64,000 nt of DNA from Chiloscyllium plagiosum (Eukaryota). Each line of letters opens with the position of its first letter. Within the stretch, counting starts at the first letter, position 1. Below the pieces are notes generated by a model that worked only from the letters and a program-made list of their open reading frames with translations, was not told where the DNA came from and ran no database searches. Shown here piece by piece: positions 61,542-64,000 of the stretch. Location of the stretch: positions 36,632,394 through 36,696,393 of the forward strand of contig NC_057733.1 in NCBI RefSeq assembly GCF_004010195.1, given 5' to 3'. The translations under genes were made by a program, and so were the position numbers.

Positions 61542-63375
61542 ACCTCACACAGCCTTTCGCTACTATTTTTAATCCTATTTACCAACAACTACCTCAACAT
61601 TTAGTGTTAGCGTAAGCATTTTAATTTGTTGTTTCACGTTGTTAGATTTTAATTTCAATGACATTTACAGTACTGGAACTGTCAGCGTTAAAAGGTGCAT
61701 TCCAGTATCATTAGCAGAAGTTTGTCGTTGACATTCTGTATAAACGAGGCAGTGACATTGGGCAACATACTTGCTGACTTTGCAATTCTTTTCAGTATAT
61801 GTCTTTTAAAGTTGATTTTGTAACGTCGTGCTGGGGCATTGGTGGTGATAGATCACCAAATGGGCATTTTATTGTGCGTGAACCTTGCGTAGACTTTAAG
61901 AATGTTATTTGACTTGATTTTGGAATAGAAAGTTCTAGTAGGCTACACTGCCTAGAGCGAACACAATGTAAGGATGATATAGATAAATACAAATGTACTA
62001 AAACAATATTTCAAACTAATGCGACATAAGTCTAAGTTTTTGTTTCCTTCGTCAGAATGGCGTAGCCTAATTTTCAATATGACTGATAAGTGGCTAATGC
62101 AGTAGTTTTATGTATTGCAAGATCCCACACAAACACAAAATTGGCAAATAATGGATTAAGCTTTTCCCTTATGGTGTTTATTGGCAAATAAACATTGATA
62201 ACACTAGGGAATCTACTTCATTAGCAGTATGTTATCTTTAACATGGTATTTAAGCTAGCAGAGGTTACCTCTAATTTAGAATCTAAACAAAATATACCAT
62301 GTAAAACAATGTAGCATTTCTTCAATTTTTCACTGAAGTGTCAACCTGCATTATATGCTCAAGTCAGGGCTAAACTGAAGCCAGATCTTTTAATCCAGAA
62401 GTGAGTATGCAACAAAGCTGACGTTAATGAAACTGATTTAGGAAGTGGTGATTAGATGTCCAAAGTAAAGTTGAGTTGTGGAATCCAGAAACTTTAATAC
62501 AAAGTCAGTGATCTGTTCAAAATGATGTAGTATATAGTTAGTTATCTGAAGGATGTTGACCACACTTGCCTGAAATCCACATCTCAGAAGGAGACCATTT
62601 GGCTTATCTGTGAACTCTAGCTCTCACTCATTTCACTTTTTTAGGCTACCCCATTTCTGTTTCTCTTCATGTAGATAGTAAACTTACTCTTAATCCATTT
62701 TGGGTGATAGTGAGATATGCATTCTACTGTTTTTTGTATTTTTCTGAAATTTATTTGGTTAGTGGTTATCTTCTGTTTATGTCCTATTATTTTGGATAGG
62801 CCCACAAGTAATAGTGATTTTTCACATCCTTCAATTTGAAGATTCTGCAGGGAAACAAGCTGCAGCTTGCATATTTCCTGATCACTGCATCATCTTAATT
62901 TTGGTAATATCCTTGGAAATCTTTTGTACAAACTCTCCTGTACTTTAATAATCATTTTAATACTCGGGACCACTATGTTCAGGTCTGTTCTCCAAAGTGT
63001 AATTTCACTTAAGTTCTACACAAAGTTAACAATACTCCATAAGTTTCATATTTTGTTTTCCTAGGAATGATTTCTAAAATTTGGGTTTAATAACTTGTAT
63101 TGCTCTTTGTTTCAGCACCCCTAGACATATTTTCCCTCTATTTAATTTACTTTTAGATTTGAGCTCCCAAAGAAATCATGACCTACCAAAATCATCAACT
63201 TCATTCTGTGAACATTCCATTCCATTGTGAAGTATCTTGTTTATCAGCATTAAGTTGTAGTATGAGATGACATTGTTCCCTGTTTTGAACACTAACTTTT
63301 TATTTTAAACATTTCTACTCTGTCCTTTAGGTGGACAAAGTGAACCACAACTTCAAGATCAACTGCCTCGTCATC

Positions 63376-63993
63376 ATGTTCCTACAACATTACAAAGCAG
63401 AAAAATGTGCTCTTGCTCCAGGAAATGAAGGAAAGGTGCTAGCAGGATTTCCAACTGTCACAAAGCCAAGAATGCCTGCAACTAATGTTATTAAAAATGG
63501 AGCAATCCTTCTTAGTGTCATTTTAGTTGTTGTAATTACATACCATAGTTATTTTACTCTCGAGTCTCAAGTGATTCCTCGGCATGTTAAAATGAGGATG
63601 TTTAAACTAGATTTATTGTGGCAATACCCACATGATAAAAACAGAACAGAGACTTCAGAAATACTGAACCAGCTGCCATTCAATTACAGTCATCACAGTG
63701 ACTCCCAATGTGATATTGATCCAAATAGTAGATTTGATTGTGCTTTCAATGAAGCGATTGACATGACCAAATGTCAGAGTCGTGGCTGCTGTTGGAATTC
63801 AGCAGCCAAAGCTGGTTCTCCACCCTGTTTCTTGCCATCAAACTATCCTTCTTACCACATGGATTACCTTTCCCCAACAAGTACTGGCTACACAGCCTCA
63901 CTGAGCCGCAGTGAGATGACACTGTTCCCAAATGACATAATGACACTTCAGTTGAATGTAATGTATGAGACATCTGGCAGACTTCATTTTACT
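63376..63993 (+). CDS. GAA: Tandem GAA paralogue (copy 2), first coding exon (exon starts 63331); gene continues beyond the window
   Basis: Open 206-codon frame MFLQHYKAEK...[31 protein letters not shown]...GRLHFT|gtaagt. Collinear with 17103-17720 without indels. Not listed in the ORF track because no stop is reached. Confidence 0.93.
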
Positions 63994-64000
63994 GTAAGTA

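What the first reader, a model, noticed from the sequence alone, without database searches (positions are those of the whole stretch)
63331..64000. Tandem GAA paralogue with a sharply partitioned divergence pattern
Seen: copy 2 begins ~4.4 kb after the copy 1 stop. By hand count the first 110 residues (tail, anchor, stalk) are 46/110 identical and the trefoil/beta region is 73/96 identical. There are no indels in 618 nt, and all six trefoil cysteines are kept. Known: GAA is single-copy in mammals, and some birds and fish have a second gene. Inference: a lineage-specific tandem array with rapid amino-acid change in the targeting region under strict length constraint, possibly parallel to the origin of SI/MGAM-type digestive enzymes.
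Basis: partly seen in the sequence, partly recalled or inferred. Interest (0 to 1): 0.7.

Follow-up and report, generated by a model that had tools for sequence, protein, structure and literature searches.

The report
Shark GAA twins share one promoter
A bamboo shark has two old, side-by-side, active copies of the gene for the lysosomal enzyme that breaks down glycogen; the enzymes have drifted apart, even around the active site, but their on-switch is kept identical by repeated copying from one gene to the other, a known process seen in a new place.

Summary
The counts are exact (46/110, 73/96, 618 nt without indels, six trefoil cysteines). The interpretation mostly fails. The N-terminal excess is ordinary: GAA orthologues of equal age show the same split, dN/dS is 0.55, and other elasmobranchs carry indels there. 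The pair is not lineage-specific: two paralogues were found in 14 of 22 elasmobranch species and one in the chimaera. Copy 2 is annotated as full length (960 aa, Chiloscyllium plagiosum) and is spliced in RNA.

Independent DNA runs of two species each collapse the block at about double depth, yet the species differ there by 21 substitutions, the neutral rate. That points to recurrent gene conversion. The protein phylogeny is a mosaic, consistent with an old duplication plus patchy conversion. Active-site-rim residues differ between copies (human 676 in 14 of 14 pairs; W376 to Y or F in 11 of 13). Known process, apparently undescribed case; the scan noted similar conversions in microbes.

The parts
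10134..10733 (+). Copy 1 promoter and exon 1 block, 600 bp, identical to 60942-61541
10407..10416 (+). CLEAR-type motif GTCATGTGAC in the copy 1 promoter
   Evidence: same 10-mer listed as a CLEAR motif in PMC5691037; binding not tested
10461..10818 (+). Copy 1 non-coding exon 1 (inferred by homology to copy 2; GT donor at 10819)
17064..17720 (+). Copy 1 (A) exon 2; ATG at 17103; tail, hydrophobic anchor, stalk, trefoil
17103..58953 (+). Copy 1 (A) coding span, 19 coding exons, 960 aa, all introns GT-AG
   Evidence: 960/960 identical to P0129 = XP_043570740.1
58954..59618 (+). Copy 1 3' UTR; RNA contig ends at 59618, beside ATTAAA at 59610
60942..61541 (+). Copy 2 promoter and exon 1 block, 600 bp, GC 52%, CpG observed/expected 0.69 (window 0.26); the homogenised tract
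61215..61224 (+). CLEAR-type motif GTCATGTGAC about 50 nt upstream of the 5' end of the RNA contig
61269..61611 (+). Copy 2 non-coding exon 1 (5' end approximate); its last 70 nt lie outside the identical block and are 47/70 identical to copy 1
61612..63330 (+). Copy 2 intron 1, 1,719 nt, GT..AG
   Evidence: joint in one contig of run X10 and in 10 raw reads (8 starts) of run X21
63331..63993 (+). Copy 2 (B) exon 2; ATG at 63376; encodes residues 1-206 of P0001 = XP_043570742.1 (960 aa)
63487..63543 (+). Hydrophobic signal or anchor segment, residues 38-56
   Evidence: Kyte-Doolittle 19-residue maximum 2.19
63709..63837 (+). Trefoil (P-type) domain, six cysteines

Best explanation
This is an old tandem duplication of lysosomal acid alpha-glucosidase (GAA), at least as old as the common ancestor of carpet sharks, horn sharks and ground sharks, and possibly of sharks and rays. 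Both copies are intact and transcribed. Recurrent interlocus gene conversion keeps a 600-bp tract covering the core promoter and most of exon 1 identical within each species, so the copies cannot diverge in proximal regulation, including the CLEAR-type site. Older conversions homogenised parts of the coding region lineage by lineage (mainly residues 111-541). Other parts, including the loop at the active-site entrance, kept paralogue-specific residues. The N-terminal 110 residues diverge fastest simply because this is the least constrained part of any GAA. Shown: identity of the block, its collapse at about double depth in two species, neutral-rate divergence between species, splicing of copy 2, the mosaic phylogeny, and the residue differences. 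Inferred: conversion as the mechanism, shared TFEB/TFE3 control, and different substrate preference of the two enzymes.
For: 600/600 identical bases, next to 47/70 in the rest of exon 1, 52/72 in the start of intron 1 and 455/618 in exon 2. DNA run X1 has one contig spanning exactly 60942-61541 at depth 12.9, against 4.2-6.9 for neighbouring single-copy contigs, with flanking contigs overlapping it by 30 nt on each side. Run X11 (related organism B) has one contig 60978-61541 at depth 26.8 against 15.5-16.7, differing from the window by 21 substitutions and 20 gap letters, like its unique flanks (76/2336, 42/1385, 14/549). Two copies differing at 21 sites would give about 1.3-fold depth; 1.66-fold was seen. 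In RNA-like run X10 the shared exon 1 contig depth of 86.2 is close to 62.9 (copy 2 exon 2) plus 28.2 (the paralogous exon 2). AU tests on exon blocks: exons 3-7 reject the old-duplication trees (p<1e-4); exons 15-17 and 12-14 reject the lineage-specific tree (p=0.007 and 0.022); the site signal is clustered (0 of 2000 permutations). Residues 542-850 without 700-702 still reject the lineage tree (p=0.006). All 14 species pairs differ at the position of human S676 (D or N against A or G).
Against: Logan contigs drop rare variants, so they show near-identity of the block, not 100% identity. X1 depth is 1.9- to 2.9-fold depending on the baseline. The A/B labels for Heterodontus, Mustelus and batoids were chosen after viewing the alignment, so those tests are partly circular. 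Over the whole protein the lineage-specific tree is best and the shark-plus-ray duplication tree is rejected (p=0.005); that tree and its label-swapped control differ by only 2.4 lnL in exons 15-17. Exons 15-17 alone no longer reject the lineage tree once 700-702 are removed (p=0.096; 0.23 without 801 too). Only one paralogue was found in 8 of 22 elasmobranch species. No enzyme activity or transcription-factor binding was tested.
Confidence: 0.8

Rival explanations
1. The identical block is an assembly or polishing artefact that pasted one promoter over the other.
For: The assembly has N gaps (13830-14020, 37394-37868). The window differs from run X1 at 3 sites inside the block.
Against: DNA runs from two studies and two organisms each give one contig at about double depth that breaks at the block edges and joins copy 2's unique flanks. 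The RNA-like run shows the same break at 61541.
Confidence: 0.04
2. The block is identical because of extreme purifying selection (ultraconservation), not copying.
For: It is a CpG-rich promoter with a CLEAR-type motif.
Against: It differs between organisms A and B by 21 substitutions plus 20 gap letters in 584 nt, as much as neighbouring unique DNA.
Confidence: 0.02
3. GAA duplicated independently several times (carpet sharks, Heterodontus, Carcharhiniformes, batoids) and shared A/B residues are convergent. Promoter conversion is real, but the coding mosaic is not due to conversion.
For: The lineage-specific tree is best for the whole protein and for residues 111-541. The Heterodontus pair is 94% identical in residues 111-960. 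Top supporting sites 700 and 701 lie at the active-site entrance, where convergence is plausible.
Against: It needs several parallel tandem duplications. The Mustelus-carpet shark correspondence holds in separate regions (swap control rejected in exon 2, exons 15-17 and exons 18-20, p<0.002). The signal persists in 542-850 without 700-702. Conversion is seen directly at the promoter.
Confidence: 0.2
4. One reading: positive selection on the N-terminal targeting region under length constraint is sending copy 2 to a new compartment, as in the origin of SI/MGAM.
For: N-terminal identity (42%) is slightly below the 46-61% of equally distant pairs, and the tail's dN/dS is 0.94 (CI 0.41-2.36). Copy 1 has an ExxxLI dileucine-like string in its tail that copy 2 lacks (seen; motif recalled).
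Against: dN/dS for residues 1-110 is below 1 (0.55, CI 0.31-0.94). Changes are symmetric (23 against 21, 21 against 24, 15 against 13 with three outgroups). Indels occur in relatives. The dileucine-like string is absent from Stegostoma A and Callorhinchus.
Confidence: 0.1

Closest known systems
Vertebrate lysosomal acid alpha-glucosidase (GAA; glycoside hydrolase family 31; human PDB 5NN3, 9GSV)
   Same: Trefoil, N-terminal beta, TIM-barrel and C-terminal beta domains in one 960-aa chain. Human D282, D404, D518, R600, D616 and H674 are all conserved in both copies. Non-coding exon 1 with the ATG in exon 2 (the human layout is recalled).
   Different: Two tandem copies. Copy 2 has Y for W376, I for L405, and a different 676-678 loop from copy 1 (ALH against DWK). 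Proximal promoters are homogenised between copies.
Intestinal sucrase-isomaltase and maltase-glucoamylase (SI/MGAM)
   Same: GH31 with trefoil and an N-terminal hydrophobic segment. Tyr at the W376 position in 15 of 18 catalytic units of nine SI/MGAM-like proteins examined, as in copy 2.
   Different: SI/MGAM carry two catalytic units in one chain. Here there are two separate genes, each with its own promoter and, for copy 1, its own stop and 3' end. Copy 2 scores 1241 bits to human GAA against 803 (N-terminal MGAM) and 755 (N-terminal SI).
Interlocus gene conversion and concerted evolution of tandem paralogues (e.g. primate gamma-globins, alpha-globins, delta/beta-globin 5' conversions; examples recalled, not from a call)
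   Same: A sharply bounded identical tract within old diverged duplicates, species-specific substitutions shared by both copies, and a mosaic gene tree.
   Different: The currently homogenised tract seen here is non-coding (promoter and 5' UTR), while the adjacent coding exon is only 74% identical; it lies in a housekeeping lysosomal enzyme of cartilaginous fish.

Membership tests
GAA (lysosomal GH31) | Catalytic nucleophile (WIDMNE, D518) and acid/base (D616) plus subsite -1 residues D404, R600, H674 | tested here: met
   (copy 2 beyond exon 2 from database protein P0001, whose first 206 residues match the window)
GAA (lysosomal GH31) | Single trefoil plus single GH31 unit; closer to GAA than to SI/MGAM | tested here: met
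   nested among elasmobranch GAAs with Callorhinchus as sister
GAA (lysosomal GH31) | Trp at position 376 in subsite -1 | tested here: not met
   Copy 2 has Tyr, copy 1 has Trp. This is a typical residue, not a strict criterion; role of W376 from PMC5653652 passages
GAA (lysosomal GH31) | Lysosomal localisation, acid pH optimum, glycogen hydrolysis | not testable with these tools
   needs cell and enzyme assays
SI/MGAM | Two GH31 units in one polypeptide | tested here: not met
   Copy 1 stop at 58951-58953 and RNA contig ending at 59618; copy 2 has its own exon 1; no read-through joint among the 15 joints shown (94 not shown). A fused 1742-aa GenBank model exists for C. punctatum, but RefSeq splits it
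SI/MGAM | Brush-border expression and localisation | not testable with these tools
   tissue of the RNA runs is not given
Concerted evolution by interlocus gene conversion | Paralogues more alike within a species than orthologues between species over a bounded tract | tested here: met
   0 of 600 differences between copies in the window; 21 substitutions against organism B, whose copies collapse into one contig at 1.66-fold depth
Concerted evolution by interlocus gene conversion | Older divergence in homologous flanks | tested here: met
   3' flank 47/70 and 52/72 identical, above 300 of 300 shuffles; 5' flank shows no detectable homology (89 of 300 shuffles reach it)
Concerted evolution by interlocus gene conversion | Mosaic phylogeny along the coding region | tested here: met
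   protein level only, labels partly post hoc
Concerted evolution by interlocus gene conversion | Polymorphisms shared between the two copies within populations | tested here: inconclusive
   site 61317 varies among runs while each contig set shows one letter, but contigs drop variants

The most novel reading that the evidence does not exclude
Copy 2 is a functionally distinct GAA isoenzyme kept for well over 100 million years. Its pocket moved towards the intestinal maltase type twice (W376Y in carpet sharks, W376F in rays) and its entrance loop has resisted conversion in every lineage, while conversion of the promoter locks it into co-expression with the ancestral enzyme. That would be specialisation of the protein with proximal regulatory divergence actively prevented, the reverse of the usual fate of duplicates, and a natural pair for testing what sets alpha-1,4 against alpha-1,6 preference in GAA.
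Probability: 0.25. Interest if true: 0.65.

Novelty: new variant of a known kind. Interest (0 to 1): 0.42.

Why it matters
The feature flagged (fast N-terminus) is ordinary. The locus is still a clean vertebrate case of concerted evolution confined to a promoter and 5' UTR, confirmed across two species, next to coding regions that keep paralogue-specific residues at the active-site rim. It gives a direct test of whether conversion can hold duplicate regulation together while the proteins specialise. It also offers natural, apparently functional GAA variants at W376, L405 and 676-678, positions of interest for Pompe-disease enzymology. Practically, it warns that GAA gene trees and read mapping in elasmobranchs are distorted by conversion.

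Tried and rejected
No whole genome was held for this window, so copy 2's later exons and neighbouring genes could not be read as DNA; dN/dS covers exon 2 only. Bootstrapped IQ-TREE by region timed out; FastTree and fixed-topology AU tests were used instead. The whole-protein tree is the 'quick' version because the careful search did not finish. Quartet counts between shark and ray pairs favoured matched over crossed labels significantly in only 3 of 16 comparisons, and the labels were post hoc, so I do not use them as proof. A neighbour gene upstream of copy 1 was sought by scanning 77 of 125 short frames in 1-10200 against Pfam; only a reverse transcriptase remnant appeared. The sequencing-run search listed no holder on record as RNA; expression rests on the lay, where X10 is only guessed to be RNA and X21 is raw RNA reads. 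The X21 ratio of copy 1 to copy 2 reads in exon 2 (1 of 17) was rejected as biased by the 80% likeness filter. A search for short or partial second copies added only a whale shark copy B N-terminal fragment; no second copy was found for Carcharodon, Cetorhinus, two Scyliorhinus, Heptranchias, Pristiophorus, Narcine or Pristis, which does not show absence. A link to promoter-directed recombination was considered: PMC5519329 (passages) reports PRDM9 in cartilaginous fish, partial in elephant shark and tentatively with SSXRD in whale shark, so it neither supports nor excludes a promoter hotspot. Literature searches for an elasmobranch GAA duplication found nothing relevant (0 papers; 12 listed, none on topic by title or abstract start). 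No structure was predicted.

Full report
Observation. The window holds one complete GAA gene (copy 1, A) and the start of a second (copy 2, B) on the + strand. A 19-exon model for copy 1 (17103-58953, all introns GT-AG) is 960/960 identical to XP_043570740.1 of Chiloscyllium plagiosum. Residues 1-206 of copy 2 are 100% identical to XP_043570742.1, a 960-aa protein on a contig of the same length. The two proteins are 776/960 identical. All catalytic and subsite -1 hydrogen-bonding residues named for human GAA in PMC5653652 (passages read) are kept in both.

The partition is ordinary. Nei-Gojobori estimates between the copies give dN/dS 0.55 (bootstrap 95% CI 0.31-0.94) for residues 1-110 and 0.34 (0.18-0.63) for 111-206. 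The first 40 residues give 0.94 (0.41-2.36), which fits neutrality. Between-species pairs whose mature enzymes are as distant as A and B (84-87% against 86%) share 46-61% of residues 1-110, for example skate against devil ray 46% and copy A against catshark 49%; A against B is 42%. Derived changes fall evenly on both copies with three outgroups. Carcharodon, Heterodontus, Mustelus, Mobula and skates all have indels in this region, so there is no strict length constraint.

The pair is old. Cluster listings show two paralogues with near-consecutive accession numbers on same-length contigs in 14 of 22 elasmobranch species: five carpet sharks (whale shark B partial), Heterodontus, Mustelus and seven batoids. 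Adjacency outside Chiloscyllium is inferred from those records, not seen. One protein was found in the other eight species and in Callorhinchus; these absences may reflect annotation. A and B of C. plagiosum each have orthologues in Hemiscyllium, Stegostoma and Rhincodon.

Self-comparison found a second match upstream of both coding exons. It contains an exactly identical 600-bp block, 10134-10733 and 60942-61541, found only twice in the window. It is CpG-rich and holds GTCATGTGAC, a 10-mer listed as a CLEAR motif in PMC5691037 (passages read). RNA places exon 1 at about 61269-61611, spliced GT..AG to 63331 in a contig of run X10 and in 10 raw reads of run X21. The block therefore runs from about 330 nt upstream to 270 nt downstream of the transcript start and stops 70 nt before the donor. 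The rest of exon 1 is 47/70 identical and the start of intron 1 is 52/72 identical, both above all 300 shuffles; upstream there is no detectable homology.

The block is real and evolves in concert. In DNA run X1 a single contig spans exactly 60942-61541 at depth 12.9, with flanking contigs at 4.4 and 4.6 overlapping it by 30 nt, the pattern of a two-way repeat in an assembly graph. In run X11 from related organism B a single contig spans 60978-61541 at depth 26.8 against 15.5-16.7. It differs from the window by 21 substitutions and 20 gap letters, similar to unique flanks (76/2336, 42/1385, 14/549). If organism B's two copies differed at 21 sites, about 1.3-fold depth would be expected; 1.66-fold fits roughly 5-10 differences or fewer given noise. 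So the block is not ultraconserved and not an artefact of one assembly, and it has been homogenised since the two species split. In X10 the shared exon 1 contig (86.2) is about the sum of copy 2's exon 2 (62.9) and the paralogous exon 2 (28.2), and copy 1's 3' UTR is covered in X10 and X21, so both copies appear transcribed.

The coding region is a mosaic. I compared six fixed trees on 17 of the 44 aligned proteins (near-duplicates, partial sequences and bony vertebrates left out). Exons 3-7 reject all old-duplication trees (AU p<1e-4, with one control at 1.1e-4). Exons 12-14 and 15-17 reject the tree in which each order has its own pair (p=0.022, 0.007). The site-wise signal is clustered (0 of 2000 permutations). 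Removing residues 700-702 weakens exons 15-17 (p=0.096) but not residues 542-850 (p=0.006). Swapping the carpet shark labels is rejected in exon 2, exons 15-17 and exons 18-20. A duplication before the shark-ray split is not resolved: it is best in exons 15-17 but only 2.4 lnL above its swapped control, and it is rejected over the whole protein. Labels outside carpet sharks were chosen after viewing the alignment. I read this as one duplication at least as old as galeomorph sharks with patchy conversion since; repeated independent duplication remains a rival.

Active-site differences. With human numbering, every one of the 14 pairs differs at position 676 (D or N in one copy, A or G in the other). 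At W376, 11 of 13 covered pairs differ: Y in carpet shark B and F in one batoid copy, with W in both copies of Heterodontus and Mustelus. W376 lines subsite -1 (PMC5653652), and L677 and L678 lie at the entry of the groove to the active site (PMC10466331, passages read). Tyr stands at the W376 position in 15 of 18 units of nine SI/MGAM-like proteins. That this Trp/Tyr difference governs alpha-1,6 activity in human SI and MGAM is recalled; one search gave listings only. Different substrate preference is therefore an inference, untested here.

Comparison with known systems. Both copies are GAA by domain order, catalytic residues and tree. They fail the defining two-unit architecture of SI/MGAM. 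A fused 1742-aa GenBank model in C. punctatum lists A then B but lacks A's first 200 residues, and RefSeq splits it. No read-through joint was among the 15 joints shown, though 94 were not shown. Gene conversion of tandem paralogues is a well-known process; this scan has noted promoter-level conversions in microbes and viruses and nothing like this protein or locus. Four searches of the open library found no paper on an elasmobranch GAA duplication, and one search listed 14 general papers on conversion, none on this locus. Subscription journals and supplementary gene-family tables of shark genome papers were not searched and may mention the duplication.

Verdict. Observation confirmed; interpretation partly supported. 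The flagged pattern is ordinary, but the locus is an apparently undescribed case of promoter-restricted concerted evolution between old GAA paralogues with active-site-rim differences. New variant of a known kind; interest 0.42.

Noticed in passing
window 61413-61604 and the copy 1 equivalent from 10605: One upstream ATG in the shared exon 1 opens a reading frame of 63 codons (copy 2) or 55 codons (copy 1) that stops before the main start; it may dampen translation.
   Followed up: no
window about 61408-61461 and 59724-59779: A short piece inside the shared exon 1 draws thousands of contigs and resembles the reverse of 59724-59755, so exon 1 seems to contain a fragment of an interspersed repeat.
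   Followed up: partly
window 61317, 61380, 61401: Run X1 differs from both window copies at these three sites within its single collapsed contig; 61317 varies between runs, a hint of conversion acting on current polymorphism.
   Followed up: partly
window 17154-17171 (copy 1 residues 18-23): An ExxxLI dileucine-like string (motif recalled) lies in the tail of copy 1 and of several relatives but not in copy 2. Weak, possibly chance.
   Followed up: no
window 63472: Copy 2 has a second in-frame Met at residue 33, matching the annotated start of the ray paralogue, so a tail-less form is possible.
   Followed up: no
P0001 residue 801: An N-glycosylation sequon (N-G-S) is present in the B-type copy of most species and absent from A-type copies; Stegostoma B lacks it.
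   Followed up: partly
P0125 (Chiloscyllium punctatum, GCC25234.1): A 1742-aa gene model fuses copy A and copy B into an SI/MGAM-like double enzyme; probably a prediction artefact, but it confirms the A-then-B order.
   Followed up: partly
window 60289-60579 and 60772-60823: A very high-copy repeat with internal inverted repeats lies between the genes, and a 52-nt direct repeat (60394-60445, 60772-60823) sits just upstream of the converted block.
   Followed up: no
window 8396-9190 (-); also 14242-14766, 38947-40363, 52255-53377: Reverse-transcriptase (LINE-like) remnants. The first has a Pfam RVT_1 hit below the cut-off; the others were judged by eye.
   Followed up: no
P0131 and P0134 (Heterodontus francisci): This pair is 94% identical in the mature enzyme yet still differs at the 676-678 loop, suggesting recent wide conversion that spared that loop.
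   Followed up: partly
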